Shown piece by piece: positions 15,551 to 62,477 of a stretch of DNA of 64,000 bases. How positions within the stretch are numbered: position 1 is the stretch's first letter; each line of letters starts with the position of its first letter. The stretch lies in the IMG/VR virus record IMGVR_UViG_3300029590_000324, one strand, 5' to 3'. The notes beneath the pieces are model-generated. The model was not told the origin of the DNA. It saw only the letters and a program-made list of their open reading frames with translations, and searched no databases. The position numbers were made by a program, and so were the translations under genes. Source of the stretch: a virus (lineage: Duplodnaviria > Heunggongvirae > Uroviricota > Caudoviricetes).

Positions 15551-15573
15551 TTCTATGAAAGGAGAACTTGTCA

Positions 15574-15984
15574 ATGAATGTTAAAACAGGAGATGTAATT
15601 AGAATAACACTGCCAAACGCTATCGGGCATCAGCAGGGCGGAGAAAGATATGCCGTCGTTGTTTCAAACAACATTGGAAATAAAGTTTCTCCTACAGTAG
15701 AGGTTCTTCCGGGAACTACAAAAAGAGATGACAGCACTCTTCCAACTCATGCACACTTTAAAGCCGGAGAAATTCAAGGACTGCCAAGAAATACGACTTT
15801 TGAAGCCGAAAGCCAATGGGTCATTAACAAATTTCAGATAATTGAAATTGTTGGGCATCTGAGCGATAAACAGCTTGAAAGAATTGCGACAGCCATGATA
15901 ATGGCGACTCCTCTTGTCTTAAAAGCTTTTGAGAGCAATGTGCATAAGACTCAGCGCTTTCAGAAAATCCTGAATTTCTCTTGA
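15574..15984 (+). CDS. mazF: MazF/PemK/EndoA-family endoribonuclease toxin
   Basis: VKTGDVIRITLPNAIGHQQGGERYAVVVSNNIGNKVSPT...LPTHAHF aligns closely with B. subtilis EndoA [39 protein letters not shown]...LPTHVEI; AAAGGAG RBS. Confidence 0.8.
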   Translation: MNVKTGDVIRITLPNAIGHQQGGERYAVVVSNNIGNKVSPTVEVLPGTTKRDDSTLPTHAHFKAGEIQGLPRNTTFEAESQWVINKFQIIEIVGHLSDKQLERIATAMIMATPLVLKAFESNVHKTQRFQKILNFS

Positions 15985-16061: not shown

Positions 16062-17300
16062 ATGAATGTGTCAAAAAGAAACGAAGCCATAGCGATATTA
16101 AAAAGACTATTTTCGACAAAGCTTAACGTGTGCCAAGATATTTATTCCGCTGAGCTTATAGATACCGGCAAAATGACATGGGGAGAACTTGGCCCTCTTA
16201 TGTCTAATCTCGACTTAGAAAACGTATCAGATATTGTACTGTGCTGGTTGTATGAAGCTGTGTCGAAACACAGTGCTGCACTGAAAATTCCTGATGTTTC
16301 ACATTTTTTTACCGCCTCGGAAATCACCGAGGCTAATTCTGCTTATATCAAAAGAAGCTATTCTAAATTGCCAATAGCATTTCCGATACTGGCAAGACTT
16401 ACGGACAATGATAATTATCTGACGGCATTATCCATACAGGATATTGCGAATCTGAAATCTGTTGGCATTATACAGTGGAAAGAAGGAATGCAAAGAGAAA
16501 CTGTCATTACCAAGCTTTCCGATAATGACTTTATAAGTCATATCAAATATGATGACAACCGTGCCAGAGCAATCGGAAAGTCTATGAGCGACGGAACGTT
16601 CTTTCCAAATTCTCTTCGTTGGCATATCGTGGCGGACGAATCTGACTATGAGGTAAAAGATGATAGAGTTATATTGAAATCAGGGTATATTGCCGAGATC
16701 GATGGTCAGCATCGAGATAAAGGCAGCGAGTATGCTCTTATGAATAACCCGAATATTATAATGACTATGCCCATTGTTCTGACAATAGGCTCTCGTGCAA
16801 CTGCTCAGAGAATCATCAATCAAGACGAAGAACGTGCCCCCATCAATAAGAGCGTAGTGGCTCAATACAAATATACTATGGGAAACAATGTTCTGAAAAA
16901 GATTATTGGCAGCGGCGAGCTTGACGGCATTTACAAGTTCTGTGATACTCAGCAGGGAATTCAGGTCGGTCAGGGCTTTATTCTTAAATCGGATTTTGCA
17001 GCTGCTATTGATAAGTATTATTCTGCAAGAACGGTCAAGGAACAGAGTAAAGTTGCAGAATGGCTTATTGAATTTTTTAATGAGCTTGCAAGTATCAATT
17101 ATGATGCGTTTGTAGGTTATAAAAAGAGTATCTCTGCCAAAAATTCTGTATTTCCGATCTATGTTTATTTAAGTAGTAAACTTCAGAATCGTTCAGGCTG
17201 GGAAGATGAACTTGCTGCTGTTTTCCCTAAATTGGATTTTTTAAATTCAAAAAAGAGTATAGAAATAATCAATAAAGAAATGGGGGAGAAGAATGTATAA
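16062..17300 (+). CDS. DGQHR-domain protein (DndB-like, ParB/Srx superfamily)
   Basis: Literal IDGQHR motif (YIAEIDGQHRDKG); GGAG RBS 9 nt upstream. Confidence 0.6.
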   Translation: MNVSKRNEAIAILKRLFSTKLNVCQDIYSAELIDTGKMTWGELGPLMSNLDLENVSDIVLCWLYEAVSKHSAALKIPDVSHFFTASEITEANSAYIKRSYSKLPIAFPILARLTDNDNYLTALSIQDIANLKSVGIIQWKEGMQRETVITKLSDNDFISHIKYDDNRARAIGKSMSDGTFFPNSLRWHIVADESDYEVKDDRVILKSGYIAEIDGQHRDKGSEYALMNNPNIIMTMPIVLTIGSRATAQRIINQDEERAPINKSVVAQYKYTMGNNVLKKIIGSGELDGIYKFCDTQQGIQVGQGFILKSDFAAAIDKYYSARTVKEQSKVAEWLIEFFNELASINYDAFVGYKKSISAKNSVFPIYVYLSSKLQNRSGWEDELAAVFPKLDFLNSKKSIEIINKEMGEKNV

Positions 17301-18231
17301 CGAGGAAAAAAAGCTGGAATTCTTGGCAAGCATGAAAGAAGGAAGCTATACGGACATGTCTTGCAATACCTATATGTATAAGTTCGAAAAATTTTCCGAC
17401 ACTGAAGAGCTTCTTAAAAAAGACCTATATGATTTTAATTATAACGATTTTAAACTTTTGTTTGAGAGAAATAAAATCATTAACACCAATACCATGCTTA
17501 ACAGCAAGAGTATTATAAATAGGTATATAGAATGGGCAACCAAGATGGGATACTGTTCAATCGATACCATAAATGAACTTAAAAGAGTTATAAGCGAAGA
17601 CATAAATCCAAGATGGAAAATCATAACTGAAATGTTTGCAGACGAAAATGATTTGTTGGATTGTATCAGCAGTGTTATGATGGAACAGGATTCCTCGATG
17701 ATAATTTGGTATCAGGCTTTTTATGGTTTGTATTGGAATGGATTATGCAATGTAGAAATCTATAATCTGAAAAAATCAGACGTGCAGGGCAATCGTATAA
17801 AAGTTGGAGACGATACTATTATAGTATCAGATCGTTTTGCTGAAATAATTAATGAGTATAAGGACATGGATAGTGTCGTAATAAACGATAGTGTTATGCC
17901 ATTTGCTCAGTCTATTTATCTGATAAGAGCTAAGAATAAAAAGAATTCCCTTGGCCAGATCAACGATAATTTCCATGCTCAGCGCAGAAGAGCATGGGAC
18001 AGAATGGAGGTTGATATTGATAATAAGTATTATGGTAAAGTTCTCGTCCCCACTTGGATAATGAGATCCGGTAATTTTTATCGTGCATATCTCGACGAGC
18101 AGAAGGGAAAGGAAATCACATCAAACAATATATCGGATTATTTTAGAGTGTTTGCTATTTCAAATCAGAAAAAAATTGGTTATAGCACATATCGTGATTA
18201 TCAGAATTGGAAAAACGTTTTCTATAAATGA
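17293..18231 (+). CDS. hypothetical protein (312 aa) overlapping the DGQHR gene end
   Basis: 8-nt overlap with the upstream gene implies coupling; no clear tyrosine-recombinase R..HxxR..Y pattern. Confidence 0.5.
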   Translation: MYNEEKKLEFLASMKEGSYTDMSCNTYMYKFEKFSDTEELLKKDLYDFNYNDFKLLFERNKIINTNTMLNSKSIINRYIEWATKMGYCSIDTINELKRVISEDINPRWKIITEMFADENDLLDCISSVMMEQDSSMIIWYQAFYGLYWNGLCNVEIYNLKKSDVQGNRIKVGDDTIIVSDRFAEIINEYKDMDSVVINDSVMPFAQSIYLIRAKNKKNSLGQINDNFHAQRRRAWDRMEVDIDNKYYGKVLVPTWIMRSGNFYRAYLDEQKGKEITSNNISDYFRVFAISNQKKIGYSTYRDYQNWKNVFYK

Positions 18232-18287: not shown

Positions 18288-18316
18288 TTGACAAGTTTAA
18301 ACTCATCTGATATAAT
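18288..18316 (+). promoter_or_regulatory. sigma70-type promoter upstream of tRNA-Lys
   Basis: TTGACA (18288-18293), 17 nt, TATAAT (18311-18316); upstream element CATCCACAATCGCTTGACA shared with the promoter at 41440. Confidence 0.6.
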
Positions 18317-18532: not shown

Positions 18533-18608
18533 GAGTCATTAGCTCAGTCGGTAGAGCAGTAGTCTTTTAAACTATTGGTCTGGGGTTCAAATCCCCAATG
18601 GCTCACCA
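18533..18608 (+). tRNA. tRNA-Lys (anticodon TTT)
   Basis: Cloverleaf folded by hand: acceptor GAGTCAT/ATGGCTC, D arm GCTC..GAGC, anticodon stem GTAGT/ACTAT with loop CTTTTAA, T arm TGGGGTTCAAATCCCCA, encoded CCA. Confidence 0.75.
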
Positions 18609-19347: not shown

Positions 19348-19504
19348 TTAAGTTAATCATCCATCGTCAACCGAAAATACTTAACTGGTTTCAACTGAAC
19401 ATCAACAGTCTAAAATGATGAACAAAACAATTTGAAACTGCAAAAGCTTTCAAATGCTAAAGATATTATTCAGATAAGAATATCGAGTATTTATGATGTT
19501 TTCG

Positions 19505-19680
19505 GGCAGAGTTTAAAGTTCGAATAATAGCTGAAAGTTTAAAATTCAAAGCTTAATTGTTTTAAACATTAAAGTTCAGAATTTATGGTAGCAGACGTGC
19601 GTACTTGATGGCAGACTTGCTGCACTTCAAAGTTCAAATTGTAAATTGTAAATCATAAAGTTCATAGAAATCCCCGATAT
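19505..19680. repeat. five direct copies of AAAGTTCA(R)AAT-like motif in a non-coding AT-rich region
   Basis: TTAAAGTTCGAATAAT, GAAAGTTTAAAATTCAAAG, TTAAAGTTCAGAATTTAT, TTCAAAGTTCAAATTG, ATAAAGTTCATAGAAAT; also GCAGAC(G/T)TGC repeated twice. Confidence 0.5.
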
Positions 19681-19819: not shown

Positions 19820-19915
19820 GCAACAATAAGCCTAATTTGGTAAGGCAGGAGGTTGCTAACCTCTGAGTAATCATCGTATGATGGTGTTCGAGTTCGAGTC
19901 TCGGTTGTTGCGCCA
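19820..19915 (+). tRNA. tRNA-Ser (anticodon GCT), class II with long variable arm
   Basis: Acceptor GCAACAA/TTGTTGC perfect; 3-bp D stem; anticodon stem GGAGG/CCTCT with loop TTGCTAA; 23-nt variable arm; T arm TCGAG-TTCGAGT-CTCGG; discriminator G; encoded CCA. Confidence 0.7.
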
Positions 19916-20106: not shown

Positions 20107-20182
20107 TGGGATATCGCCAAGAGGGAAGGCAGTAGATTTTGACTCTACCATTCCGTGTGTTCGAATCACACTATCCCAACCA
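20107..20182 (+). tRNA. tRNA-Gln (anticodon TTG)
   Basis: Acceptor TGGGATA/TATCCCA (U1-A72); anticodon stem GTAGA/TCTAC with loop TTTTGAC; T arm GTGTG-TTCGAAT-CACAC; encoded CCA. Confidence 0.65.
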
Positions 20183-20931
20183 ATATCCATACCCTCTTAG
20201 TCAAGGAGTTAAGACGTCGTTAAAACGAAGGCATTGGGTGCAAATCCCGTAGATGGATATGGATACAACAATAAAGCACCCTACACCTTAACATAATCTC
20301 GGAGCAGTACGCATAATCGAAGGTCGGTCAGGGTGCATATATGAGCCGTTGCTTGGGGTAAGTACCCGAGCGGCTCACCAATGATACCGATAAGCAGATG
20401 CAGACTGAAGCTTGTAGGTGAAAACTCAGTGGCCAAGGTCATCTGTGCTGCATAACAGATGATAGCAAGGGGTAAAACGTGGCGGAGATTATCTTAGTGT
20501 CACCCTTGTAACTGTAAAATCCACATCAGCTTGCGGTATGGCGATATAGCTGTCTGAGTGGTTGAGGTTCGGACATTACCGATTCCGATATAAGACCGCA
20601 CGGGTGCTCCGCTGCCCATTATGATTTAAACGCGGCCTTTAGTTCCTGATAAGATCGACTCCCTGACGAGGGATAGGTCTGGCAAGTTTAAATACAGCTT
20701 CGGCTTATTGGAGACGCCTACGGGTGCAGAAGCCAGAACTCACAAGATAACGTTAAAACAGAAATGTGAAAAACAGGTTTTGCAGGGGTTCCTTAATACC
20801 GCCGTATAGAGGGTGTGATGAGCAAGGATCCAGCTCGTTGCGCAACATAAGAAATGTTGTCACGCCGTAAGACCCGAATCGGCAGATGTCGAAGCTGGAC
20901 ATCGTGGCAGCCCGGAAAGACGGGCACATAA

Positions 20932-21008
20932 CTCCCAGTAGTCCAGAGGCAGGAGACAAGGGACTTAAAATCCCTACAGGATGGGTTCGAATCCCATCTG
21001 GGAGACCA
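20932..21008 (+). tRNA. tRNA with anticodon TAA (Leu by anticodon) but class I architecture with a short variable loop
   Basis: Acceptor CTCCCAG/CTGGGAG; anticodon stem AGGGA/TCCCT with loop CTTAAAA; 5-nt variable loop; T arm ATGGG-TTCGAAT-CCCAT; discriminator A; encoded CCA. Confidence 0.6.
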
Positions 21009-21012: not shown

Positions 21013-21095
21013 GCGGGTGTGGTGAAATTGGCAGACACGATAGACTTAGGATCTATTGCGCAAGCGTGCAGGTTCAAGTCCTGTCACCCGCACCA
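21013..21095 (+). tRNA. tRNA-Leu (anticodon TAG), long variable arm
   Basis: Acceptor GCGGGTG/CACCCGC; anticodon stem ATAGA/TCTAT with loop CTTAGGA; variable hairpin TGCGCAAGCGTG; T arm GCAGG-TTCAAGT-CCTGT; discriminator A; encoded CCA. Confidence 0.7.
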
Positions 21096-21142
21096 GATGT
21101 TAATAATAGCTAACGTCAGTTGCTATATTATTAACGAAATAT

Positions 21143-21227
21143 GCGAGAGTGCTGGAATAGGCAGACAGAGCAGTCTCAAAAACTGCTGCAAGAATGCGTG
21201 TGGGTTCGAAGCCCATCTCTCGTACCA
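21143..21227 (+). tRNA. tRNA-Leu (anticodon CAA), long variable arm
   Basis: Acceptor GCGAGAG/CTCTCGT; anticodon stem GCAGT/ACTGC with loop CTCAAAA; long variable arm; T arm GTGGG-TTCGAAG-CCCAT; discriminator A; encoded CCA. Confidence 0.7.
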
Positions 21228-21289: not shown

Positions 21290-22600
21290 CCAGCCGCAAT
21301 CCCATTGGCTTTAGACGATGGGTTAAGCTCGCTGTGATATAACAGTGATGTAGAAAGGCGGTAACAAACCAATGTTTAAATCATTCAAATATAGGCTTTA
21401 TCCAAATAAAACACAAGAAATACAAATTCAGAAAACATTCGGTTGTTGTAGATTTGTTTATAATCAGACGCTTGCTTATAGGAAAAATCTTTATGAAGCA
21501 GAAAAGAAATCTATAAACAAGATAGGTTGTAACAACTATGTTAATCAAGTTCTTAAAAAAGAATATGAATGGCTTAAAGAGGTAGACAAATTTGCTCTTA
21601 CTAATTCTGTTTATAATATGGATAGCGCATATCAGAAATTTTTCAAAGAACATTCTGGTTATCCTAAATTCAAAAGTAAGAAGAATAATCATAAATCTTA
21701 TTCTACTAACAGTACAAACAACAACATAGAGGTTGATTTCGAGAAGAACAGAATTAAGCTTCCAAAACTTAAATGGGTAAAAGCAAAAGTTCATAGAGTA
21801 TTTGTTGGTATAATTAAATCTGCAACTTTATCTCAAACGCCAAGTGGCAAGTATTTTATTTCTATTCTTGTAAATTGTGAGAATTTTCAGATGAAGTCTA
21901 CTGGTGCTATGGTTGGTATTGATTTAGGTATCAAGGATTTAGTCATCACATCTGATGGTGAAAAGTTTGAAAACTCCAAAACTCTTTACAAGTATGAAAA
22001 GAAACTTGTAAAGGAGCAAAGAAAACTTGCTAAAAAGACAAAGGGTAGCAATAATAGGAACAAACAGCGTATTAAAGTCGCAAGACTGTATGAGAAGATA
22101 ACAAATATCCGTGTTGATAATTTGCATAAAATTTCTCACAAACTAATTCAGGAAAACCAACTGATAGTGAGTGAGGACTTAAAAATTAGCAATATGGTTA
22201 AAAATCATAATCTTGCAAAGAGTATTTCTGATTGTAGTTGGTATGAACTTACAAGGCAGTTACAGTACAAGGTTCACTGGAATGGTAGACAGTATATCAA
22301 GATTGATACTTACTTTCCAAGTAGTCAGACTTGTAGTGTATGTGGGTATATTAATAAGGAAACTAAGGATTTATCTGTAAGAGAGTGGACTTGTCCTTGT
22401 TGTAATACACGTCACGACAGAGATATAAACGCTGCTATAAATATTTTGTATGAAGGATTAAGGCTGATTAAATCAGCCTAAATAATAATGTAGTACGGTA
22501 GGAACTATCGGAATTTACGCTTGTGAAGTTAGTAGGTTACGAGGACGATGAAGCAAGAAGCCGACTGGCTTTAGACGGTCGGTAGTTCACAAGCAGTATT
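21290..22600 (+). mobile_element. IS200/IS605-family element carrying only tnpB (IS1341-like), with subterminal hairpins
   Basis: Left hairpin CCCATTGGCTTTAGACGATGGG (21301-21322) and right hairpin CCGACTGGCTTTAGACGGTCGG (22561-22582) share the loop TGGCTTTAGACG and flank the tnpB ORF; boundaries approximate. Confidence 0.5.
21372..22481 (+). CDS. tnpB: TnpB (IS605 OrfB-family RNA-guided nuclease-like transposase accessory protein)
   Basis: N-terminal [16 protein letters not shown] typical of OrfB; C-terminal RuvC-like region with zinc finger CSVCGY..CPCCN; 369 aa. Confidence 0.8.
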
Positions 22601-22822
22601 CAATTCTGTTTGATTGGGTTGGAGATTGTGATGAAGTCAACTGTGCCCAGAGTTCATCGTTCACCCATAGTGGCGATTTACATATACAAATCAAATCATA
22701 AGGAGAGATGGTTGTGAAATCCATCAAGGTAATCTTTTACAGTATTTGCCGTACAGCTGCTTAATTCTTTTGGCTGTGCGGCTAAAATTGACCCCAAAAC
22801 ATATTAGAAAGGATAACTGCAA

Positions 22823-23131
22823 ATGACAAATAATTATAATGCTTCGAATTATGCCAAAGGCTCCGATGGTGCAAAGCTGAATGACGAAAATCTTAAGGAA
22901 ATGAATGCTTCCGGTAAGTGTAATACTTGTAAATATTTTCAGTTCAGAGGTTACAAATGTACGAAGAAGACTGAGGAAGGCAATTTTGTTCGTTCTGCCA
23001 TGATGCCAATTACATATACCGAAACAACTTCAAAGGGCAATTTTATCAACGTGTTAAAGCCCTCTTCTTGCAAGGATTATGAGAGTAAGGGTAAGCGCAA
23101 GATTGAAAAGACAGAGGAGGCGGCCGAATGA
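22823..23131 (+). CDS. Cys-containing hypothetical protein (102 aa)
   Basis: ORF after the IS right end; weak RBS. Confidence 0.4.
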   Translation: MTNNYNASNYAKGSDGAKLNDENLKEMNASGKCNTCKYFQFRGYKCTKKTEEGNFVRSAMMPITYTETTSKGNFINVLKPSSCKDYESKGKRKIEKTEEAAE

Positions 23132-23700
23132 AACTTCTCGTAGTGGTTGATATGCAGAATGACTTTATCGATGGGTCTCTCGGTTCTGATGCAGCACAGG
23201 CAATCGTTCCTAATGTAGTTGAAAAAATCAAATCTGCTGATAAAAACACGGCAATTTTATTCACAAAAGATACTCATTATAACGATTATGCTGAAACTCT
23301 TGAGGGGAGAAAACTTCCTGTTCAGCACTGTCTCGCTCGTTCTTTCGGCTGGATGATAAATGATGATGTCGCTGACGCATGGTATCACTCCAATACATAT
23401 GCAATATTGGAGCCCGAAGTCAGAGAAGGGAACATCGTTCTTAAGAACACATTTGGCAGTACCCAGCTTATGAGTTTACTTATTCGTGAAGGTAAAATGT
23501 TCGACGAAATTGAATTTATCGGGCTGGACACCGATATCTGTGTTGTATCCAATGCCCTCATGGTGAGAGCTGCACTTCCTGATATGCCAATCGTTGTTGA
23601 CGCCTCCTGTTGTGCCGGATCAACACCTGAAAAGCATAAGGCGGCACTCGAAGTTATGAAGAGCTGTCAGATTGATATCATAAACGAGAGCGAGGTATAA
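23128..23700 (+). CDS. pncA: nicotinamidase (isochorismatase family)
   Basis: VVVDMQNDF (catalytic Asp), TKDTH..PVQHCL (metal-binding His pattern as in PncA WPxHCV), GLDTDICV (catalytic Cys). Confidence 0.7.
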   Translation: MKLLVVVDMQNDFIDGSLGSDAAQAIVPNVVEKIKSADKNTAILFTKDTHYNDYAETLEGRKLPVQHCLARSFGWMINDDVADAWYHSNTYAILEPEVREGNIVLKNTFGSTQLMSLLIREGKMFDEIEFIGLDTDICVVSNALMVRAALPDMPIVVDASCCAGSTPEKHKAALEVMKSCQIDIINESEV

Positions 23701-23702
23701 CT

Positions 23703-24527
23703 ATGATTTACATAAATAATGCACCTTTTGGAGATAAAAGTTTTCCTAATGGTGAAACCATTTTTGATATGGGAACTTATTATGTCAAGGATGCAGTAAA
23801 TGAAATCAAGCTTGTATATGAATCGGACGCTGATATCTTTAAGCTCATTGTGGCCAAGAAGTGTCTTGATGAACAGTCAAAGGAAAACAGAGTTGATTAC
23901 GGTTGGGATGAAGCAATCATAACTCTGACCATTGCATATATGCCATATTCAAGAATGGATAGGCAGATGTCTTCAATGGCGTTCAGCCTCAGATATGTTG
24001 CCGATATCATCAATTCTCTTAATTTTGATTCGGTAACAATACTTACACCTCACTCCAATGTAACTCCGGCACTTATTAACAATGTCAGAACCATATACGA
24101 TATCGGCGTTAATGAGGCATATAAATACAGTTCCCCCGATTACGTATTCTATCCCGACAACGGAGCCTGCAAGTCGTTTGGAGAACATCTCAAATATACT
24201 AATTACTTTTACGGTAACAAGAAGCGTGAGCTTTCAACCGGAAAGATTGAAAAGTATGAGCTGGTTAATGCCCCCGATATTAAGGACAAAAACATTCTGA
24301 TAATCGATGACCTTTGTGTTAAGGGCGGCACATTTATTCTTGCAGCTCAGGCTCTTAAAGCGGCAGGTGCAGCCAAGGTAGATTTGTTTGTAACTCATCT
24401 TGAAAAGGCTGTGTATAAAGGAATACTGCTCACGACAGACTGGATTGATCATATCTATACAGTCAATACACTGGAAATCCCCATTGAAAACGACAAAATA
24501 ACAGAAATAAGAGGTAATTTCATATGA
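23703..24527 (+). CDS. ribose-phosphate pyrophosphokinase (Prs)-family protein; candidate ADP-ribose pyrophosphokinase (Adps-like)
   Basis: IAYMPYSRMDRQ resembles Prs IPYFGYARQDRR; PRPP-binding loop IIDDLCVKGGT resembles VLVDDMIDTAGT; stop overlaps the NAMPT-like gene start. Confidence 0.6.
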   Translation: MIYINNAPFGDKSFPNGETIFDMGTYYVKDAVNEIKLVYESDADIFKLIVAKKCLDEQSKENRVDYGWDEAIITLTIAYMPYSRMDRQMSSMAFSLRYVADIINSLNFDSVTILTPHSNVTPALINNVRTIYDIGVNEAYKYSSPDYVFYPDNGACKSFGEHLKYTNYFYGNKKRELSTGKIEKYELVNAPDIKDKNILIIDDLCVKGGTFILAAQALKAAGAAKVDLFVTHLEKAVYKGILLTTDWIDHIYTVNTLEIPIENDKITEIRGNFI

Positions 24528-25990
24528 ATGAAATAATGCCAATGCTTCTTTGTGATTTTTACAAAGAGTGTATGATGGTTCAGCAGAGCCCTAAGCTCAC
24601 TAAGCTCGTATCCTATATGACACCAAGAATGTCCAGAGTACACGATGACAAACTCGTCTTCTTCGGACTTCAGGCGTTTATCGAGAAGTATCTTGTGGAA
24701 TATTTCAATAACGAATTTTTCAATAAGCCTGTCGATGAGGTCTGCGCCGAGTATGAAAGAGTTCTCGGCAGCACTCTCGGCAAGGGTACATATGATACCG
24801 CAAAAATCAGAGCTCTTCACGAGCTGGGCTATTTGCCTGTTAAGATATCGGCACTTCCCGAGGGAACCCGTGTCCCCATGCACGTTCCTATGCTGGAAAT
24901 AAGCAGCACACACCCTGATTTTATATGGGTCGGACAGTTCCTTGAAAGTCTTATGAGTGCTTCACTCTGGCATCCAATGGTGTCTGCAAATGTGGGTTAT
25001 TGGTATCGTCAGATCGTTGATAAGTTCTACGACATCAGCGTTGAAGATGACGTGCCCAGAGCCAAGGCTCTCGGAGACTTTTCATTCAGAGGTCAGCATA
25101 GTCTTGAAAGTGCGACTGCCTCTTCTGCCGGTTGGTGTACTTCGTTTCTGAATACAGCGACAGTACCCGCAATTCCTTGGCTGGAAAAATATTATCACTG
25201 CGATTGTACCAAGGAGCCCGTAGCTTACGGGGCGGTATCAACCGAACATTCAGTGATGACCAGCAACTTCTCTATCGACGGCGATGAGATTACATTTCTC
25301 CGTAAGCTGCTGACTGAGCTTTATCCCAATAACAGTTTCAGTGTAGTATGCGATTCTTATGATTACTGGAATGTAGTCAATAATATTTTGCCTCAGCTAA
25401 AGCCTGAAATTATGGCTCACAACGGCTGTATGCTGATAAGAGGGGACAGCGGAGACCCTGTTGAGATAGTGACCGAAACTGTGTTTGCACTCTGGGAAGA
25501 ATTCGGCGGAACAGTCAACAGCAAGGGTTATAAGGTACTCGACCCTCACGTTAAGGCGATTTACGGGGACAGTATCACCGTTCAGCGCTGTCAGCAGATA
25601 TACCAGAGGCTCATTGACAACGGTTTTGCCTGCAATAATGTAATCCTCGGTGTCGGCAGCTTCTCAATGATGTGCGTTGAAGAGGACAATATGCTCAAGC
25701 CTTTTACCCGTGATACATATTCAATAGCTATTAAGGCGACTTATGGTGAGGTAGATGGTAAGCCCATAATGATTTTTAAGAATCCCAAGACAGATACGGG
25801 ATTCAAGAAGTCCCAGAAGGGTATGTGCTTTATCTATAAAGAGCACGGCGAGATAAAGTATCAGGACGGCTTTACAGCTGAGACAGTTCCTGTCAATGGC
25901 TTGTTCCGCACAGTGTTCGAGGATGGTAAATGCTATAATACTCAGACGCTTGCTGACGTTCGTAATACGCTTTACGAAGGAGGATTCTGA
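24524..25990 (+). CDS. nicotinamide phosphoribosyltransferase (NAMPT/NadV) family enzyme; candidate Namat-like
   Basis: Several blocks align with human NAMPT: ALPEGTRVP~AVPEGFVIP, LGDFSFRGQHSLESA~LHDFGYRGVSSQETA, SVVCDSYDYWN~SVVSDSYDIYN, LIRGDSGDP~IIRPDSGNP, NSKGYKVLDPHVKAIYGDSI~[20 protein letters not shown]. Confidence 0.85.
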   Translation: MNEIMPMLLCDFYKECMMVQQSPKLTKLVSYMTPRMSRVHDDKLVFFGLQAFIEKYLVEYFNNEFFNKPVDEVCAEYERVLGSTLGKGTYDTAKIRALHELGYLPVKISALPEGTRVPMHVPMLEISSTHPDFIWVGQFLESLMSASLWHPMVSANVGYWYRQIVDKFYDISVEDDVPRAKALGDFSFRGQHSLESATASSAGWCTSFLNTATVPAIPWLEKYYHCDCTKEPVAYGAVSTEHSVMTSNFSIDGDEITFLRKLLTELYPNNSFSVVCDSYDYWNVVNNILPQLKPEIMAHNGCMLIRGDSGDPVEIVTETVFALWEEFGGTVNSKGYKVLDPHVKAIYGDSITVQRCQQIYQRLIDNGFACNNVILGVGSFSMMCVEEDNMLKPFTRDTYSIAIKATYGEVDGKPIMIFKNPKTDTGFKKSQKGMCFIYKEHGEIKYQDGFTAETVPVNGLFRTVFEDGKCYNTQTLADVRNTLYEGGF

Positions 25991-26418
25991 TGACACCAAC
26001 AGTAAAAGAAGACGATGCTTTCGTAGATGGTTTTCTGTATAAGCGTCTCAGAGATGCCTACGTGGAGCATGACCGCTTGATAATTGCATATGACCTTGAC
26101 GATACAGTGAGGCCATATAAAAGCGAATGCTGTGATCACACGAAGAACTTGATACGCAAAGCAAAAGCGGTTTTGAACCCCTATTTCATCGTGTTTACAG
26201 CCAATCCTCACAACGAAAAGAATATCCAGTTTCTTCATGATGAGAACCTTCCATTCGATACTATCAACGAGAATATCCCGGAAATTGGCAGATATGGAGA
26301 CGGTTTGAAGATATATTATAACCTATTTCTTGATGATAAGGCCGGACTTTTCGAGGCTTGTAATGCCCTGGCAACACTTTGTTGGCAAGTGGAAATGGGA
26401 TATGTAAATAAGGAGTGA
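25990..26418 (+). CDS. HAD-superfamily phosphatase-like protein (142 aa)
   Basis: Motif I IAYDLDDTV (DxDxT); sits within the NAD module. Confidence 0.45.
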   Translation: MTPTVKEDDAFVDGFLYKRLRDAYVEHDRLIIAYDLDDTVRPYKSECCDHTKNLIRKAKAVLNPYFIVFTANPHNEKNIQFLHDENLPFDTINENIPEIGRYGDGLKIYYNLFLDDKAGLFEACNALATLCWQVEMGYVNKE

Positions 26419-26422
26419 TATT

Positions 26423-26797
26423 ATGGCACAAATTGGAATCAGAAACAGTTGTAAAACAGTCAAATTAAAAAATATACCAGTCGGAAATTTATTTATGAAG
26501 AATGGTTCTTACTATATCAATACTGATATGAGCTTAGCAATGAGAAAGCGTATTCTTGAACTTACTGGTGTTGATATAATGATTGACGGGAAGACATTTA
26601 AGTCAACATACCAGATAATGCTCGAGATAGCTGACAAGTGGTCTGAACTTTCTGACGTCGACAGGACTGCATTGCTTGAAATGAATGGCATTACTAAGCG
26701 TTCTTGTGTTGTCAATCTTCAATCTGGGATAGCTTCCTATATGAGTGATGACGAAATCGTAATAAAAATCAATAATTCTATAACTTTGGACGAATGA
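26423..26797 (+). CDS. hypothetical protein (124 aa)
   Basis: ORF within the NAD module; no known motif. Confidence 0.45.
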   Translation: MAQIGIRNSCKTVKLKNIPVGNLFMKNGSYYINTDMSLAMRKRILELTGVDIMIDGKTFKSTYQIMLEIADKWSELSDVDRTALLEMNGITKRSCVVNLQSGIASYMSDDEIVIKINNSITLDE

Positions 26798-26809
26798 GGA
26801 GAAATTAAG

Positions 26810-27625
26810 ATGAATGATTTTAATGCAAAGAAGATAACTTCCAAGATTATCAACTGGATCCGTTGGTACTTTGACAAGAACGGCGATGAGAACACAACTG
26901 CCGTCGTCGGTGTTTCGGGCGGCAAGGATAGTTCGGTAGTGCTTAAGCTGTGTGTTGAAGCACTTGGTCCCGAGAGAGTAATCGCAGTGCTGCTCCCCAG
27001 AGGCGAACAGAATGATATCAGATATTCTTATACAGCTTATACTGTATGCGGAATTCCTGATACGAATATTTATGAAATTAACATCAATAAAATATGCGAG
27101 GCATTTGATTTCAAACTGTTTAGCTATAGTCGTCTGCCTCAAACATGTGATCAAAGAAACATTGATTGCATGAAAACCAACTATCCTGCAAGAATTCGTA
27201 TGACTGTTCTTTATGGCATAGCTGCTCTTAGGGGCGGCAGAGTAGCCAATACCTGCAATCTCAGTGAAGATTGGGTCGGCTACGCAACCAAGTTCGGTGA
27301 TGGTGCAGGTGATTTCAGTCCTCTCCACGATTTTACAGTACAGGAAGTTAAGGCAATCGGCAGAGAGCTTGGGCTTCCCAGCTGTCTGATCGATAAGGTG
27401 CCTACCGACGGTCTCTGCGGTAAGACTGATGAGGAGAATCTCGGATTTACATATGAGACACTCGATAAGTATATCCGTACAGGCGAATGTGACGAAGACA
27501 CAAAGAAGATTATAGACGGAAAGCATTATGCAAATCTTCATAAGCTGAAGCCTATGCCTAAGTTCAGATACAGACCCGATCTTGACGGAAAGGCGGAGAA
27601 GAACAATGAAGTCACATCAGATTGA
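26810..27625 (+). CDS. nadE: NH3-dependent NAD+ synthetase
   Basis: PP-loop VVGVSGGKDSSVV; 271 aa, typical NadE length; GAGGAG RBS. Confidence 0.7.
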   Translation: MNDFNAKKITSKIINWIRWYFDKNGDENTTAVVGVSGGKDSSVVLKLCVEALGPERVIAVLLPRGEQNDIRYSYTAYTVCGIPDTNIYEININKICEAFDFKLFSYSRLPQTCDQRNIDCMKTNYPARIRMTVLYGIAALRGGRVANTCNLSEDWVGYATKFGDGAGDFSPLHDFTVQEVKAIGRELGLPSCLIDKVPTDGLCGKTDEENLGFTYETLDKYIRTGECDEDTKKIIDGKHYANLHKLKPMPKFRYRPDLDGKAEKNNEVTSD

Positions 27626-44208: not shown

Positions 44209-46407
44209 ATGAGAGTATTATTGCTTTTAAGAGGTTCCGCAGGCTGCGGAAAATCAACATGGATCGAGCAGAACGGATTGAAGCCGTATGCGATTTCGCC
44301 TGACGACATCAGACTTATGCACCAGAGCCCCATAATGCAGCCTGATGGTTCTTACGGTATCAGCCAGAGCAACGATAAAGCTGTATGGAATACTTTATTC
44401 AATTTGCTTGAATATCGTATGCAGAAAGGCGAGTTTACGGTGATCGATGCAACAAACTCTAAAACCGTAGAAATGAACAGATACAAAAATATGTGCGACA
44501 CCTACCGTTACAGAATTTATTGTGTCGATTTCACAGATATTCCCATTGAGGAAGTCAAAAGAAGAAACGCAGGCAGACCCGAGGTCAAAAGAGTTTCCGA
44601 TGAGGTCATTGATAAAATGTACTCAAGGTTTGCTACTCAGAAGATTCCTGCAGGCATTAAAGTAATAAAGCCTAATGAATTAGACAAGATCTGGTTCAAG
44701 AGCATTGATTTGTCTGAATATAAGAAAATCCACCATATCGGAGACATTCACGGTTGCTATTCTGCACTTCAGTATTATTTTGACTTCAACGGCGGACTTA
44801 AAGACGACGAGTTCTACATATTCCTCGGTGATTATATCGACAGGGGAATTGAGAACGTCGAGGTGCTTAACTTCCTTATCTCCATCAAAGATAAAAAGAA
44901 CGTCTTTATGCTTGAGGGAAATCATGAGAGATGGCTGTGGCTTTATGCCAACGATGTCCGTGGCAAATCCAAGGAATTTGAACTTGTTACCCGTCCTCAG
45001 CTTGATGCTGCCAAGATCAGCAAAAAAGACCTCAGAATGCTTTACCGCAAATTTGGTCAGTGCGCTTATTATACATATAACGGTAATCAGTTCATTGTAA
45101 CTCACGCCGGCCTCAGCACAATCCCCGACAATCTCACATTTGTTGCAACTGATCAGATGATTCACGGCGTTGGTTCGTATAATGATTTTGAGACTATCTC
45201 TGACACCTTTATAAGAACTACACCCGAAAATACATATCAGATTCACGGACATAGGAACACGAAGTCGCTTCCTGTGCAGGTCAATGACAGAGTATTTAAT
45301 CTCGAAGGAAAGGTTGAATTTGGTGGCTGTCTCCGCTGCGTTCAGATAAGCAATGACGGATATAAGACTATGGAAATGCCCAACTATGTCTTCAAAACAC
45401 CCGAAGCTGTACAGGAACAATCTGTAGTAAACAGTTCTGTTGCCGATGTTATCATGTCTCTCCGTAGCAATCGTTACATTCAGGAAAAGTCTTTCGGCAA
45501 TATCTCGTCTTTCAATTTTACTAAGCAGGCATTTTACGACAAGGTTTGGGATGAGCAGACAACAAAGGCAAGAGGCTTATATATAGACACCGTAAAGGGC
45601 AAGGTCGCAGCGAGAGCTTATAATAAATTTTTCAATGTAAACGAGCGTTCGGAAACTAAATTTGATATGCTCCAGCATAAGCTCCAGTTCCCTGTAACGG
45701 CATACGTCAAGGAAAACGGCTTCCTCGGAATTGTTAGCTACGATGAATATAATGACGACCTTTTCATTGCCAGCAAATCGACTATCGAGGGCGATTTTGC
45801 GGGATATCTCAAAGATATGCTCTATCGCAAGGTTTCTGCCGATAATATCGCCGCTATGAAACAGTATATCAAAGACAATGATGTATCGTTCGTATTTGAG
45901 TGCGTTGATATGAAAAACGACCCTCACGTTATCGATTATCCCGACAGCGAACTGTTCCTGCTGGATATTGTACATAACACAATGGAGTTTTCAAAGTATG
46001 ATTACGAGCAGATGACCAATATAGCGGATAAATTTGGCATGAAGCATAAGGAAAAAGCCTATGAGATTGCCAACTGGCAGGAATTTTTCGACTGGTATTA
46101 TGAGGTGCTTGATCCCGATTATGAGTATCACGACAGAAAAATCGAGGGCTTTGTCATTGAAGATAGTGCGGGATATATGGTTAAGCTCAAGCTGACGTAT
46201 TATAACTTCTGGAAGTTTATGAGAAGCGTAGCTCAGGAGGCTATTCGTAAGGGATATATTCAGAGAACTGCGGCTCTTACAACTCCTTTGGCAAATGAAT
46301 TCTATGCTTGGGTCAAGCAGCTGCACGATGTTGAAGATAGGGATAGCATTCCTCGTGACATATGCACACTGAGAGGACTGTTTTATAAAGAAAAGGAGAA
46401 ATCGTAA
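44209..46407 (+). CDS. polynucleotide kinase-phosphatase-ligase (Pnkp-like trifunctional RNA repair enzyme)
   Basis: N-terminal P-loop LRGSAGCGKST; central calcineurin-type phosphoesterase motifs GDIHGCY, GDYIDRG, GNHE; C-terminal nucleotidyltransferase motif I KENG (KxNG); same domain order as Clostridium thermocellum Pnkp. Confidence 0.7.
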   Translation: MRVLLLLRGSAGCGKSTWIEQNGLKPYAISPDDIRLMHQSPIMQPDGSYGISQSNDKAVWNTLFNLLEYRMQKGEFTVIDATNSKTVEMNRYKNMCDTYRYRIYCVDFTDIPIEEVKRRNAGRPEVKRVSDEVIDKMYSRFATQKIPAGIKVIKPNELDKIWFKSIDLSEYKKIHHIGDIHGCYSALQYYFDFNGGLKDDEFYIFLGDYIDRGIENVEVLNFLISIKDKKNVFMLEGNHERWLWLYANDVRGKSKEFELVTRPQLDAAKISKKDLRMLYRKFGQCAYYTYNGNQFIVTHAGLSTIPDNLTFVATDQMIHGVGSYNDFETISDTFIRTTPENTYQIHGHRNTKSLPVQVNDRVFNLEGKVEFGGCLRCVQISNDGYKTMEMPNYVFKTPEAVQEQSVVNSSVADVIMSLRSNRYIQEKSFGNISSFNFTKQAFYDKVWDEQTTKARGLYIDTVKGKVAARAYNKFFNVNERSETKFDMLQHKLQFPVTAYVKENGFLGIVSYDEYNDDLFIASKSTIEGDFAGYLKDMLYRKVSADNIAAMKQYIKDNDVSFVFECVDMKNDPHVIDYPDSELFLLDIVHNTMEFSKYDYEQMTNIADKFGMKHKEKAYEIANWQEFFDWYYEVLDPDYEYHDRKIEGFVIEDSAGYMVKLKLTYYNFWKFMRSVAQEAIRKGYIQRTAALTTPLANEFYAWVKQLHDVEDRDSIPRDICTLRGLFYKEKEKS

Positions 46408-61400: not shown

Positions 61401-61738
61401 CTTAAAAATATAGATATGCAGATATACCAGAACCAGTGAATGAATCAGTCTCAAGATTTGGTAAGGTGATTTGGCAGGTGTGTCTTATCCCAATTATTAT
61501 TATTGTTCGTGAAACTTCGACACACCTCTGATGGTGTGTTTTTTGTGTGATGGTGTGTTTTTCAGCAACTGTTTCAAAGTGGTGTGTTTTTCAAAAAGCA
61601 TATTTTCCCATAGACACACTTTCGACACACCAAGCAATACTTTATATGCTTGAAAGTGGCTATAATACGCAATAAAATGCGCTGATACCAAATGAGTTGA
61701 AATCTAATAACATGATTTAATTCCTCCAAATAATTATT

Positions 61739-62356
61739 GTCACACCCTCACGGGTGTGTGAGTTGAAATCATTGTTCATTTGACCCTCATAATAATTTGT
61801 AAGAAGTCACACCCTCACGGGTGTGTGAGTTGAAATCCTGCAGCGGTGTCCCTTTCCTCCGATATCGTGTGGTCACACCCTCACGGGTGTGTGAGTTGAA
61901 ATCTTGATAGCACGGACGCATTCGGTCATGCGTTCGTCACACCCTCACGGGTGTGTGAGTTGAAATTCCCCAAGTTACGGAATGTGTCCGTAAATAGTCA
62001 GGTCACACCCTCACGGGTGTGTGAGTTGAAATTCCTGCCGCTTCTGCTCCTGCCGATATTCTTCAAGTCACACCCTCACGGGTGTGTGAGTTGAAATATA
62101 TATTTAGTGATGTACCGTGAGACTTTCTCATGTCACACCCTCACGGGTGTGTGAGTTGAAATATAAAAGAGCGTAAGATTGATGCAGCGTTAGTTAGTCA
62201 CACCCTCACGGGTGTGTGAGTTGAAATAAGGTTGACAGGTATTTCGGACTGGAAAAATATGTCACACCCTCACGGGTGCGTGAGTTGAAATTTCATCAGT
62301 TCACCCGTTTCCTTCGCAAGTGGATGGTCACACCCTCACGGGTATGTACTGAAAAT
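61739..62356 (+). CRISPR. CRISPR array of 10 repeats and 9 spacers with type I-C-like repeat GTCACACCCTCACGGGTGTGTGAGTTGAAAT
   Basis: 31-nt repeats at 61739, 61806, 61872, 61936, 62002, 62067, 62132, 62197, 62261 (variant GTGCG) and a degenerate terminal repeat at 62327. Spacers are unique and 33-36 nt. The AT-rich leader at 61400-61738 contains a partial repeat remnant GAGTTGAAAT at 61693. No cas genes in the window. Confidence 0.9.
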
Positions 62357-62477
62357 TATGACAATTTCCAGATAGCTGATTTGCACCCATTACGCCCAAA
62401 ATACAAAGCTAAAGCCAATCACAATCATATCTTAATAAATAAAAACAGCGCAGAAACTTTCGCTTCTGCGCCGAACA

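What the first reader, a model, noticed from the sequence alone, without database searches (positions are those of the whole stretch)
20183..20931. ~750-bp ORF-free GC-richer region inside the tRNA cluster: candidate large structured ncRNA
No ORF is supported and no canonical cloverleaf could be folded between tRNA-Gln and the UAA tRNA. The region is full of local helices, for example the acceptor-like minihelix GAGCCG..CTTGGGgtaagtaCCCGAG..CGGCTCACCA at 20340-20390, TCATCTGT..ACAGATGA at 20426-20449 and GGCTTCGGC at 20699. Large ornate RNAs of phages and prophages in Firmicutes (GOLLD, ROOL classes) are characteristically found next to tRNA clusters. This could be such an RNA, a cluster of degenerate tRNA-like elements, or a ribozyme.
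Basis: inference. Interest (0 to 1): 0.6.

Follow-up and report, generated by a model that had tools for sequence, protein, structure and literature searches.

The report
Phage tRNA-operon mosaic structured RNA
A 750-base gene-free stretch inside a gut phage's tRNA gene cluster is a patchwork of conserved, folded RNA pieces, two of them crippled tRNA look-alikes; it matches no catalogued RNA family and its job is unknown.

Summary
The interval 20183-20931 is real. It is ORF-free, richer in G+C than its flanks, and lies between tRNA-Gln and tRNA-Leu(UAA) in a six-tRNA operon of an uncultured human-gut phage.

Rfam 15 finds nothing there, even at E<=10. It is not GOLLD, ROOL, tmRNA, RNase P, an intron or a known ribozyme.

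About 20 related contigs show it is not one uniform giant RNA. It is a mosaic of independently folding modules that are gained, lost and swapped between phages:
- a cloverleaf-shaped pseudo-tRNA with a stub anticodon arm;
- a closed hairpin domain;
- an acceptor/T-arm minihelix ending in ACCA, which is a 34-nt deletion derivative of a full cloverleaf kept in relatives;
- an 85-nt element (20516-20600), conserved about as well as the tRNAs, in phages that otherwise share no DNA similarity with this one;
- an H-type pseudoknot followed by about 300 nt of hairpins.

Across nine homologues, 97.7% of the proposed pairs are kept, with 8 compensatory pairs. The block is also more conserved than neighbouring coding DNA.

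A relative carries the catalogued RAGATH-33 RNA in the same array.

Best reading: these are new phage tRNA-island structured RNAs, probably released by tRNA-processing enzymes. Their function is unknown.

The parts
18288..18316 (+). Consensus sigma-70 promoter (TTGACA-17-TATAAT with TG) upstream of tRNA-Lys. Probable start of the transcript that carries the tRNAs and the gap.
   Evidence: a 12/12 match, and no strong terminator before the gap. An equivalent TTGACA-17-TATAAT sits upstream of tRNA-Lys in L102. Transcription itself is inferred.
20107..20182 (+). tRNA-Gln(UUG) with encoded CCA. Forms the 5' boundary of the gap.
   Evidence: 55.5 bits.
20184..20259 (+). Cloverleaf-shaped pseudo-tRNA: 7-bp acceptor stem, D arm, 4-bp stem with UAAA tetraloop in place of the anticodon arm, 3-bp T stem with a 7-nt loop, no CCA.
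   Evidence: The MFE of the isolated segment is a cloverleaf, but z = -0.18. ARAGORN does not call it. The only Rfam trace is Tymo_tRNA-like, 13.1 bits, E = 5.2. It is identical in L117/L115. L205 has two pair-preserving changes in the D stem and one disruptive change in the T stem. L002/L004/L120 carry an unrelated ~250-nt module here instead.
20274..20342 (+). Closed hairpin domain ('module E'): GCACCCU (20276-20282) pairs with AGGGUGC (20330-20336). The tip is variable.
   Evidence: Fold z = -2.19. Present in all window-type relatives, with tips of different length.
20343..20380 (+). Acceptor/T-arm minihelix with encoded discriminator A plus CCA (GAGCCG-UUG-CUUGGG-GUAAGUA-CCCGAG-CGGCUC-ACCA).
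   Evidence: Fold z = -4.06. L004 and L115 carry 34 extra nt that restore D and anticodon-like arms, and the MFE there is a cloverleaf ending in ACCA. There is a compensatory G-C to A-U change in the acceptor stem of L115. All six genuine tRNAs in the operon also encode CCA.
20381..20515 (+). Hairpin module: UCAUCUGU/ACAGAUGA at 20439-20462, and CAAGGG/CCCUUG at 20466-20508. Shared only with close relatives.
   Evidence: By energy alone it is not significant (z = -0.95).
20516..20600 (+). 'Module A', the most conserved element. Its layout is: AAAAUCCACAUCAGCUUGCGGU, then hairpin 1 (20538-20553), then CUGAGUGGUUGAG, then hairpin 2 (20567-20584), then CGAUAUAAGACCGCA.
   Evidence: Found in every homologous array. 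In L101/102/103/111/122 it starts 6-7 nt after the CCA of tRNA-Lys. In L101/L102/L111 it is the only sequence besides tRNAs that still aligns with the window. Hairpin 2 has 5 of 6 pairs with compensatory changes and hairpin 1 has one. Covariance model R1 scores it 105.8 bits and finds no other copy in 1.1 Mb of related loci.
20602..20635 (+). Candidate H-type pseudoknot: S1 pairs 20602-20606 with 20613-20617; S2 pairs 20609-20612 with 20632-20635.
   Evidence: 93.3% of cells paired, against 27-57% for slid controls. Each stem has one compensatory pair (G-C/A-U and C-G/U-A).
20636..20931 (+). 'Module B', a multi-hairpin domain that abuts tRNA-Leu. It contains:
- an 11-bp hairpin at 20813-20843 with an invariant palindromic loop AAGGAUCCA;
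- a hairpin at 20844-20858;
- a three-way junction at 20859-20908, which includes GAUGUC-GAAGCUG-GACAUC (20885-20903);
- a terminal hairpin GCCCG-GAAAGA-CGGGC (20910-20925).
   Evidence: Fold of 20790-20931 gives z = -4.03. On 9 homologues, 14 local helices of modules A+B keep 97.7% of pairs, with 8 pairs changed on both sides (shuffles 4.0, 0/500; slid controls 0-3). Several helices hold G-U pairs, which would be A-C mismatches on the other strand. Identity to L116 is 86.6%, against 66-79% for coding DNA.
20932..21008 (+). tRNA with anticodon UAA and encoded CCA. Forms the 3' boundary of the gap.
   Evidence: 54 bits. In every homologous array where the downstream boundary is held (L213's contig ends before one), the module-A RNA is followed by a tRNA-Leu with anticodon UAA or CAA, built on at least three different tRNA backbones.

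Best explanation
The interval is the non-tRNA part of a phage tRNA operon. It is probably transcribed from the promoter at 18288-18316 together with six tRNAs.

It is a chain of independently folding RNA modules, each closed by its own stem. Recombination shuffles these modules among a small group of human-gut phages. Two of them are tRNA-derived but cannot decode: a cloverleaf with a stub anticodon arm, and an acceptor/T-arm minihelix ending in ACCA. The rest are non-tRNA structured elements. The core element is an 85-nt module kept as strictly as the tRNAs themselves.

Inferred steps:
- RNase P and the 3'-end tRNA-processing enzymes cut at the flanking tRNAs and at the internal tRNA-like handles.
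- This would release stable non-coding RNAs of roughly 160 nt (20183-20342), 38 nt (the minihelix) and 550 nt (20381-20931).
- These RNAs would act during infection, as the equally unexplained GOLLD, ROOL and RAGATH RNAs of phage tRNA islands are thought to do.

Shown: conservation, strand, local structure, modularity, and absence from known families. Inferred: transcription, processing and function.
For: - No ORF, and the frame is not preserved.
- Structure is specific to the + strand, and G-U-containing helices are maintained.
- Covariation is present: hairpin 2 of module A has 5/6 compensatory pairs; the pseudoknot stems have one each; 14 helices on 9 homologues are 97.7% paired, with 8 double-change pairs against 4.0 in shuffles and 0-3 in slid controls.
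- Purifying selection is visible. The block is 86.6% identical to L116, where coding DNA is 66-79%. Module A and the tRNAs are the only DNA still alignable with L101/L102/L111.
- Modularity is seen in several places: a 235-nt cassette with an embedded tRNA-Asn-like element in L002/L004; a 34-nt indel that converts cloverleaf to minihelix; a ~140-nt cassette near the 3' end; and alternative 5' modules. Some insertions are bounded by short direct repeats or closing stems.
- The same arrays host a catalogued structured RNA: RAGATH-33 in L116, 110.5 bits.
- There is a consensus promoter and no terminator before the gap.
- Cloverleaf MFE folds with non-canonical anticodon arms appear in several independent modules.
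- GOLLD and ROOL are described as lying near tRNA islands, with tRNAs sometimes inside the GOLLD linker (PMC12286853; PMC5737381).
Against: - There is no expression or processing data.
- The family is tiny, about 20 contigs, all from human gut. Most helices therefore vary little, and the shuffle control is inflated by relatedness.
- Close relatives (L210/L211) lack the element altogether, so it is dispensable.
- Several sub-segments are no more stable than shuffled sequence.
- The pseudo-tRNA at 20184-20259 is not statistically tRNA-like. In L205 it carries a T-stem-disrupting change, which fits decay.
- The invariance of module A's single-stranded blocks could partly reflect recent horizontal transfer rather than selection.
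Confidence: 0.55

Rival explanations
1. It is one giant ornate RNA of the GOLLD/ROOL type. A single ~650-750-nt fold, possibly homo-oligomeric, would have a conserved core and a variable linker that can carry tRNAs.
For: - Same genomic niche: a phage tRNA island, with tRNA-like elements embedded.
- A conserved core (module A) sits next to variable regions, as in GOLLD.
- An invariant palindromic loop GGAUCC on an 11-bp hairpin (20824-20832) could form a self-kissing contact.
- The whole gap folds with z = -2.83.
Against: - No match to RF01998 or RF03087 at E<=10, with local covariance-model alignment.
- Modules occur independently. L111/L122 have module A without the pseudoknot and module B. 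L101-103 have a different 3' domain. The 5' half is replaced wholesale in L002/L120/L116.
- RNAalifold long-range pairs have almost no covariation.
- The internal minihelix with ACCA looks like a processing site that would cut the RNA.
Confidence: 0.15
2. It is a graveyard of decaying tRNA genes and recombination scars in a fast-evolving tRNA array, with no function of its own.
For: - tRNA-derived remnants are present.
- Modules are gained and lost between close relatives, and the element is absent from L210/L211.
- The window keeps only the closing stem of a deleted RAGATH-33 cassette.
- L205 has a T-stem-disrupting change in the pseudo-tRNA.
Against: - The block is more conserved than adjacent coding DNA.
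- Compensatory substitutions maintain the hairpins.
- Module A is invariant over 25- and 17-nt blocks in phages that share no other DNA similarity.
- The non-tRNA modules show no residual tRNA signal.
Confidence: 0.12
3. Module A is a self-cleaving ribozyme with an HDV-like nested double pseudoknot. It would cut at its own 5' edge and so trim the 3' trailer of the upstream tRNA, as theta ribozymes do.
For: - The helix order P1-J1/2-P2-P3-P1'-J1/4-P4(variable)-J4/2-P2' can be drawn, and all cells pair.
- In five phages the module starts 6-7 nt after the CCA of tRNA-Lys.
- P4 is the variable, covarying hairpin, as in HDV-like ribozymes.
- The phage encodes a kinase-phosphatase-RNA ligase fusion that could heal 2',3'-cyclic phosphate ends.
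- Theta ribozymes are gut-phage, tRNA-adjacent elements (PMC10879173).
Against: - P1 and P2 never vary, so they are untested.
- P1 would be 8 bp with a bulged A, and it starts with C rather than G1-U.
- L3 lacks the U-CC, and J1/4 is UUGAG rather than GG.
- J4/2 is 9-11 nt and begins with A in half of the sequences, rather than CUAA.
- No HDV-family Rfam hit.
- An alternative local pairing, GUGGUU/GACCGC, competes with it, and the L116 substitution favours that alternative.
- In the window the module is 330 nt from the nearest tRNA.
Confidence: 0.07
4. The tRNA-shaped, anticodon-less modules and the ACCA minihelix are decoys or competitive inhibitors. Their targets would be host, or the phage's own, enzymes that attack tRNA bodies or 3' ends. 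They would be part of the phage's tRNA-centred counter-defence.
For: - At least four independent modules keep a cloverleaf or minihelix shape while their anticodon arms are remodelled.
- The phage carries tRNAs with U-rich anticodons (Lys-UUU, Gln-UUG, Leu-UAA).
- It carries a T4-type polynucleotide kinase-phosphatase/RNA ligase 1 fusion.
- A PemK/MazF endoribonuclease gene is syntenic with this tRNA set in many phages.
Against: - The evidence is purely contextual.
- Anticodon nucleases recognise the anticodon loop, which these modules lack.
- The most conserved parts (modules A and B) are not tRNA-like.
- Phages with the MazF-tRNA synteny mostly lack these modules.
Confidence: 0.08

Closest known systems
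GOLLD RNA (Rfam RF01998)
   Same: A large non-coding RNA of phages and prophages, next to tRNA islands. It has a conserved part plus a variable part that can contain tRNAs, and its function is unknown (PMC12286853).
   Different: No covariance-model similarity at E<=10. Here the conserved core is a short 5' element (85 nt) rather than a ~400-nt 3' domain. The modules occur independently of each other, and an internal ACCA minihelix suggests fragmentation.
ROOL RNA (Rfam RF03087)
   Same: Found in phages and prophages, commonly near tRNAs, possibly co-transcribed with them, and made of many stems (PMC5737381).
   Different: No covariance-model similarity. [quoted passage not shown] Distribution is far narrower: about 20 gut contigs, against >1500 sequences.
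RAGATH-33 RNA (Rfam RF03102)
   Same: A catalogued candidate structured RNA of unknown function. In relative L116 it sits in the same tRNA array as a stem-closed cassette. This is the nearest precedent for what the window's modules are.
   Different: The sequence and structure are different. In the window the RAGATH-33 cassette itself is deleted, and only its closing stem remains at 21096-21142.
HDV-like theta ribozymes of gut phages (Kienbeck et al. 2024, PMC10879173)
   Same: Gut Caudoviricetes elements placed directly 3' of tRNAs. Module A can be drawn with the same nested double-pseudoknot helix order, with a variable P4.
   Different: Module A lacks G1-U, the L3 U-CC, the J1/4 GG and the J4/2 CUAA with its catalytic C. 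P1 is bulged. The element is 85 nt against ~55 nt. Theta-associated tRNAs rarely encode CCA, whereas here all of them do.
Phage T4 stable RNAs of the tRNA region (species 1 and 2, rnaC/rnaD); this comparison rests on my own knowledge
   Same: Small stable RNAs of unknown function, co-transcribed with phage tRNAs and released by the tRNA-processing machinery.
   Different: No sequence relationship was tested or is expected. The T4 RNAs are ~120-140 nt, and they are not known to be modular or to contain tRNA-shaped elements.

Membership tests
GOLLD (RF01998) | Match to the family covariance model (conserved 3' domain) | tested here: not met
   cmscan at gathering score and at E<=10 on 3.1 kb and on the 749 nt alone gave no hit. 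Relatives gave none either.
GOLLD / ROOL | Location in a phage or prophage next to tRNA genes | tested here: met
   The gap lies inside a six-tRNA operon of a phage.
ROOL (RF03087) | Match to the family covariance model (six multistem junctions, three pseudoknots) | tested here: not met
   No hit at E<=10.
GOLLD / ROOL | Homo-oligomeric nanocage assembly | not testable with these tools
   The only hint is an invariant palindromic loop GGAUCC at 20826-20831.
HDV-like / theta ribozyme | Nested double-pseudoknot helix order P1-P2-P3-P1'-P4-P2' | tested here: inconclusive
   All cells of the drawn P1 and P2 pair, but they never vary. P3 and P4 covary. A competing local helix exists.
HDV-like / theta ribozyme | Catalytic C as the first nucleotide of a short J4/2 (CNRA/CUAA) | tested here: not met
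   J4/2 is 9-11 nt and begins with A in L002, L101-103, L111 and L122. The theta ribozyme segments are given.
HDV-like / theta ribozyme | G1-U wobble at the cleavage site, a continuous 6-7-bp P1, and P1.1 formed by the L3 CC and the J1/4 GG | tested here: not met
   P1 starts with C-G and has a bulged A. L3 is (G/A)A(U/C)AUA. J1/4 is UUGAG.
HDV-like / theta ribozyme | Self-cleavage in Mg2+ | not testable with these tools
   Needs in vitro transcription.
tRNA (RF00005) | Score above the model threshold, or an ARAGORN call | tested here: not met
   No tRNA hit in 20183-20931 at E<=10. The embedded tRNA-like elements of L002/L004/L111/L122 do pass (37-57 bits, model positions 3-68).
tRNA-like minihelix (RNase P / CCA-enzyme model substrate) | Coaxial acceptor plus T-arm helix of ~12 bp with a 7-nt loop and 3' NCCA | tested here: met
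   20343-20380 has 6 + 6 bp, a 7-nt loop and ACCA. The MFE frequency is 0.68 and z = -4.06. Cleavage by RNase P was not tested.
tmRNA, RNase P RNA, group I/II introns, HEARO/omega RNA, Y RNA-like | Match to the Rfam models; for tmRNA also an ARAGORN call | tested here: not met
   No TROVE/Ro, IscB or reverse-transcriptase gene was found among the window ORFs that were scanned.
RAGATH-33 (RF03102) | Match to the family model | tested here: not met
   Absent from the window. It is present in relative L116 at 110.5 bits, below the gathering score of 120.4, with E = 8e-24.

The most novel reading that the evidence does not exclude
These arrays could represent a new class of phage tRNA-island RNA system. 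An 85-nt core element with a nested double-pseudoknot topology, plus tRNA-shaped but anticodon-less modules (including an ACCA minihelix), would be produced from the tRNA operon and act on tRNA ends or on tRNA-binding enzymes. The action could be a new self-cleaving or CCA-end-binding RNA, or decoy tRNAs. It would work together with the phage's MazF-like RNase, its replacement tRNAs (Lys-UUU, Gln-UUG, Leu-UAA/CAA) and its kinase-phosphatase-ligase repair enzyme.
Probability: 0.12. Interest if true: 0.8.

Novelty: new member of a known kind. Interest (0 to 1): 0.45.

Why it matters
Phage tRNA islands are already known to harbour enigmatic large RNAs (GOLLD, ROOL, RAGATH motifs), and none of them has a known function. 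This locus adds uncatalogued members.

It also shows something the big families hide. The RNAs are built from stem-closed cassettes that are swapped between phages. Some cassettes are tRNAs that kept their shape and lost their anticodon.

The link to a phage that also carries a MazF-type RNase, U-rich-anticodon tRNAs and a tRNA-repair enzyme gives a concrete hypothesis to test: these RNAs take part in the conflict over tRNA integrity.

If they are merely processed spacers, the finding is a modest addition to RNA family catalogues.

Tried and rejected
- **Rfam.** cmscan at gathering score and at E<=10 on the window, the gap alone and 20 related loci found only tRNAs, one RAGATH-33 in a relative, and noise.
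- **BLAST.** blastn of the gap against 50,697 phage genomes gave no match.
- **Collection scans.** Exact and degenerate pattern scans for module A gave the following:
  - viral collection: the same 8 contigs plus chance hits in coding DNA;
  - metagenome collection: 9 contigs;
  - genome collection: only a chance hit in an Acidobacteria MAG.
- **Covariance model of module A.** It found no diverged copies in 1.1 Mb of related loci.
- **MazF-like neighbours.** 80 loci were fetched to look for diverged versions of the RNA. None were found, apart from loci from contigs already known to carry it.
- **Whole-region RNAalifold.** The long-range pairs have a covariation term of only -1.83 kcal/mol, so they were not used.
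- **Module A or hairpin 2 as a tRNA-like arm.** Loop lengths vary from 5 to 8 nt, so this was rejected.
- **Hammerhead reading of CUGAUGAG at ~20655.** The window has CUGAUAAG, there is no GAAA after stem II, and Rfam finds nothing.
- **RNase P-like CR motifs (ACAG..GGCUUAU, CGGAAAGACGGGC).** They are in the wrong order, and the second is a self-contained covarying hairpin.
- **Group II domain V reading of the 34-nt minihelix.** The bulge is on the wrong strand, and Rfam finds nothing.
- **tracrRNA-like link to the CRISPR-like array.** The only match is 10 nt (20809-20818), which is chance-level.
- **TnpB omega RNA.** That RNA lies at the 3' end of tnpB, not 440 nt upstream of it, and relatives have the RNA without TnpB.
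- **Small ORFs.** The frame is not preserved among homologues.
Full report
**Observation**

ARAGORN and Rfam agree on six tRNA genes on the + strand:
- Lys-UUU at 18533
- Ser-GCU at 19820
- Gln-UUG at 20107-20182
- Leu-UAA at 20932-21008
- Leu-UAG at 21013
- Leu-CAA at 21143

Nothing is called between Gln and Leu-UAA. All six encode CCA.

The 749-nt gap has no + strand ORF above 37 aa. Its G+C is 0.46-0.50, against 0.31-0.40 in the flanking genes. The + strand folds better than shuffles (z = -2.83) and the - strand does not (z = -0.82).

A consensus promoter (TTGACA-17-TATAAT) lies at 18288-18316. No convincing terminator precedes the gap.

**Setting**

The window is a large phage; nearly all its long ORFs are on the + strand. 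It encodes:
- a replication module: PolIII alpha, DnaB-like helicase, primase;
- anaerobic ribonucleotide reductase and dUTPase;
- ThyX;
- an NAD salvage cluster at 23128-27625;
- a TnpB at 21372-22481;
- a tyrosine recombinase at 17293-18231;
- a PemK/MazF endoribonuclease at 15568-15984;
- a polynucleotide kinase-phosphatase-RNA ligase 1 fusion at 44209-46407.

All relatives found are IMG/VR contigs of 111-146 kb or human-gut metagenome contigs.

**Known families**

cmscan against Rfam 15 finds only the tRNAs, at gathering score and at E<=10 on 3.1 kb. On the 749 nt alone it finds one meaningless Tymo_tRNA-like hit (13 bits, E = 5.2). GOLLD, ROOL, HEARO, tmRNA, RNase P, group I/II introns and all self-cleaving ribozyme families are therefore excluded, as far as covariance models can see. 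blastn against 50,697 phage genomes finds nothing.

**Homologues show a mosaic**

Homologues came from neighbouring-protein searches, DNA pattern scans and contig look-ups. About 20 distinct contigs carry related sequence. They do not share one RNA. The modules behave as follows.

- *Pseudo-tRNA (20184-20259).* Present only in the closest relatives. L002, L004, L120 and L207 carry an unrelated ~250-nt module in its place.
- *Hairpin domain (20274-20342).* Present in all window-type arrays, with tips of different length.
- *Minihelix.* In L004 and L115 it carries 34 extra nucleotides that make it a full cloverleaf ending in ACCA. In L116, L120 and L207 a different cloverleaf-shaped element, with a 7-bp/6-nt 'anticodon' arm, stands in its place.
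- *Cassette in L002/L004.* A 235-nt cassette follows module A. It is closed by a 9-bp stem and contains a tRNA-Asn-like element with a frayed acceptor end and no CCA. In L111 and L122 the same cassette has its anticodon arm replaced by a short capped stem, yet it still scores 37-40 bits as tRNA.
- *3' cassette.* A ~140-nt cassette flanked by a CAGCCC direct repeat is present near the 3' end in L002, L115, L116 and L205. A diverged version is in L003.
- *RAGATH-33.* L116 carries this catalogued RNA (110.5 bits) as a stem-closed cassette between tRNA-Leu(UAG) and tRNA-Leu(CAA). The window keeps only the closing stem, at 21096-21142.
- *Absence.* Close relatives L210/L211 lack the whole element.

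**The conserved core**

One element is present in every array: module A, at 20516-20600.

Its blocks AAAUCCACAUCAGCUUGCGGUAUGG and CUGUCUGAGUGGUUGAG were invariant in the six arrays first aligned. Among all arrays recovered later they carry only isolated single-base changes.

In L101, L102 and L111, across 11-14-kb loci, only the tRNA genes and module A still align with the window at the DNA level. The one shared protein in those loci is 28-34% identical.

In five phages module A begins 6-7 nt after the CCA of tRNA-Lys.

In every array whose downstream boundary is held, the RNA that starts with module A ends at a tRNA-Leu with anticodon UAA or CAA. These tRNAs sit on at least three different backbones.

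Hairpin 2 (20567-20584) has compensatory changes in five of six pairs, and hairpin 1 has them in one pair.

The invariant segments can be drawn as two further helices: CCAC.AUCAG with CUGA.GUGG, and UGCGGU with ACCGCA. Together with the two hairpins, these give the helix order of an HDV-like ribozyme. However:
- These helices never vary, so they are untested.
- A competing local helix, GUGGUU/GACCGC, exists and is favoured by the L116 substitution.
- The defining core of HDV-like and theta ribozymes is absent. That core comprises G1-U, the U-CC in L3, GG in J1/4, and a short J4/2 starting with the catalytic C (segments listed in the supplement of PMC10879173). It is missing here.

I therefore do not file module A as an HDV-like ribozyme, though self-cleavage cannot be excluded without an assay.

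**Downstream structure**

Directly after module A, an H-type pseudoknot (20602-20635) has one compensatory pair in each stem.

For modules A plus B, I fixed 14 local helices from the window's own folds and counted them on nine homologues:
- 97.7% of cells are paired, against 28-42% when partners are slid.
- 8 pairs change on both sides, against 4.0 in shuffles (0 of 500 reach 8) and 0-3 in slid controls.
- The covariation score is 0.139, against 0.015-0.040.

The structure was derived from one of the sequences and the sequences are related, so these figures are supportive rather than proof.

Several helices contain G-U pairs, which fixes the strand.

The block is 86.6% identical to L116, where coding DNA is 66-79% identical.

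An 11-bp hairpin at 20813-20843 carries an invariant palindromic loop, AAGGAUCCA. This is a possible self-kissing site.

**Interpretation**

The evidence shows a conserved, + strand, structured, non-coding and modular region that belongs to no catalogued family.

I infer that it is co-transcribed with the tRNAs. I also infer that RNase P and the 3'-end enzymes cut it at the flanking tRNAs and at the tRNA-like handles. The ACCA minihelix has the form of the classical RNase P model substrate (own knowledge). The products would be stable RNAs of about 160, 38 and 550 nt.

In kind, it resembles GOLLD, ROOL and RAGATH RNAs. These are described as lying near tRNA islands of phages, sometimes with tRNAs inside them, and their function is unknown (PMC12286853; PMC5737381).

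The rivals are a single giant fold, a tRNA graveyard, a ribozyme and tRNA decoys. Each is scored in the report sections.

**Context that may bear on function**

The PemK/MazF gene lies upstream of the tRNA/module A operon in every lineage for which the locus extends far enough.

In 16 further phages, a MazF-like gene sits about 1.3 kb upstream of a compact tRNA set: Leu-UAA, Lys-UUU and Gln-UUG. Those arrays have no large RNA.

Together with the kinase-phosphatase-ligase fusion, this points to a phage toolkit built around tRNA cleavage, replacement and repair. Whether the RNA modules belong to that toolkit is untested.

**Verdict**

This is a real feature: a new, narrowly distributed set of phage tRNA-island structured RNAs. 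It is not a member of any known family, and its function is unknown.

Noticed in passing
window 61690-62358 (+ strand): A CRISPR-like array: 10 copies of the repeat GTCACACCCTCACGGGTGTGTGAGTTGAAAT, 31 nt long, with a palindromic core and a type I-C-like appearance. The period is 64-67 nt. The last copy is degenerate, and a partial repeat sits at 61694. No cas gene was found among the ORFs scanned. The array lies at the end of the + strand gene block, just before genes switch to the - strand.
   Followed up: partly
window 44209-46407 (+): A 732-aa fusion of a polynucleotide kinase (AAA_33), a metallophosphatase and a T4 RNA ligase 1 domain. This is a one-protein version of the T4 PseT + Rnl1 tRNA-repair pair.
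   Followed up: no
window 15568-15984 (+); L101 4585-4995; L102 5300-5701; L111 9857-10285; L133-L168: A PemK/MazF endoribonuclease gene with no recognisable MazE next to it. It is syntenic with the tRNA operon in all module-A phages. In 16 other viral contigs it sits ~1.3 kb upstream of a compact tRNA set, Leu-UAA / Lys-UUU / Gln-UUG. This suggests a functional link between a phage MazF and tRNAs with U-rich anticodons.
   Followed up: partly
window 20932-21008: The tRNA with anticodon UAA is only 77 nt long with a short variable arm, so it is class I in shape. Bacterial tRNA-Leu is normally class II. Relatives place class II tRNAs (84-85 nt) with anticodon UAA or CAA at the same position. 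Its amino-acid identity is therefore uncertain.
   Followed up: no
window 21096-21142; L116 9401-9528 (-): The 47-nt spacer between tRNA-Leu(UAG) and tRNA-Leu(CAA) is the closing stem left behind by a ~220-nt cassette. In L116 that cassette contains RAGATH-33 RNA (110.5 bits, E = 8e-24, just under the gathering score).
   Followed up: yes
window 21372-22481 (+) and 22482-22822: A TnpB (IS605 OrfB / Cas12f-like) gene lies just after the tRNA array, followed by ~340 nt without an ORF, where its omega RNA and right end would be expected. Relative L209 has a TnpB at a different place in its array.
   Followed up: no
window 19430-19680: An AT-rich stretch upstream of tRNA-Ser contains repeated AAAGTTCA/AAAGTTCG words at irregular spacing. 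No explanation was sought.
   Followed up: no
L016 7476-7859; L017 7661-8310; L018 7457-8103; L019 7458-8033: More distant relatives, which share the 218-aa neighbour protein at 37-39% identity, also have 380-650-nt gaps between tRNAs. These gaps have no + strand ORF above 53 aa, and their G+C is 0.38-0.40 against 0.32-0.33 for the locus. They are unrelated in sequence to the window's gap and have no Rfam hit. They may be further uncatalogued tRNA-island RNAs.
   Followed up: partly
L208 539-650; L212 7465-7575; L213 7233-7340: In three further phages, another conserved ~110-nt non-coding module (CCUAACGUCAAGUC...GGGUAACUCGAAAA) sits between a tRNA and module A.
   Followed up: no
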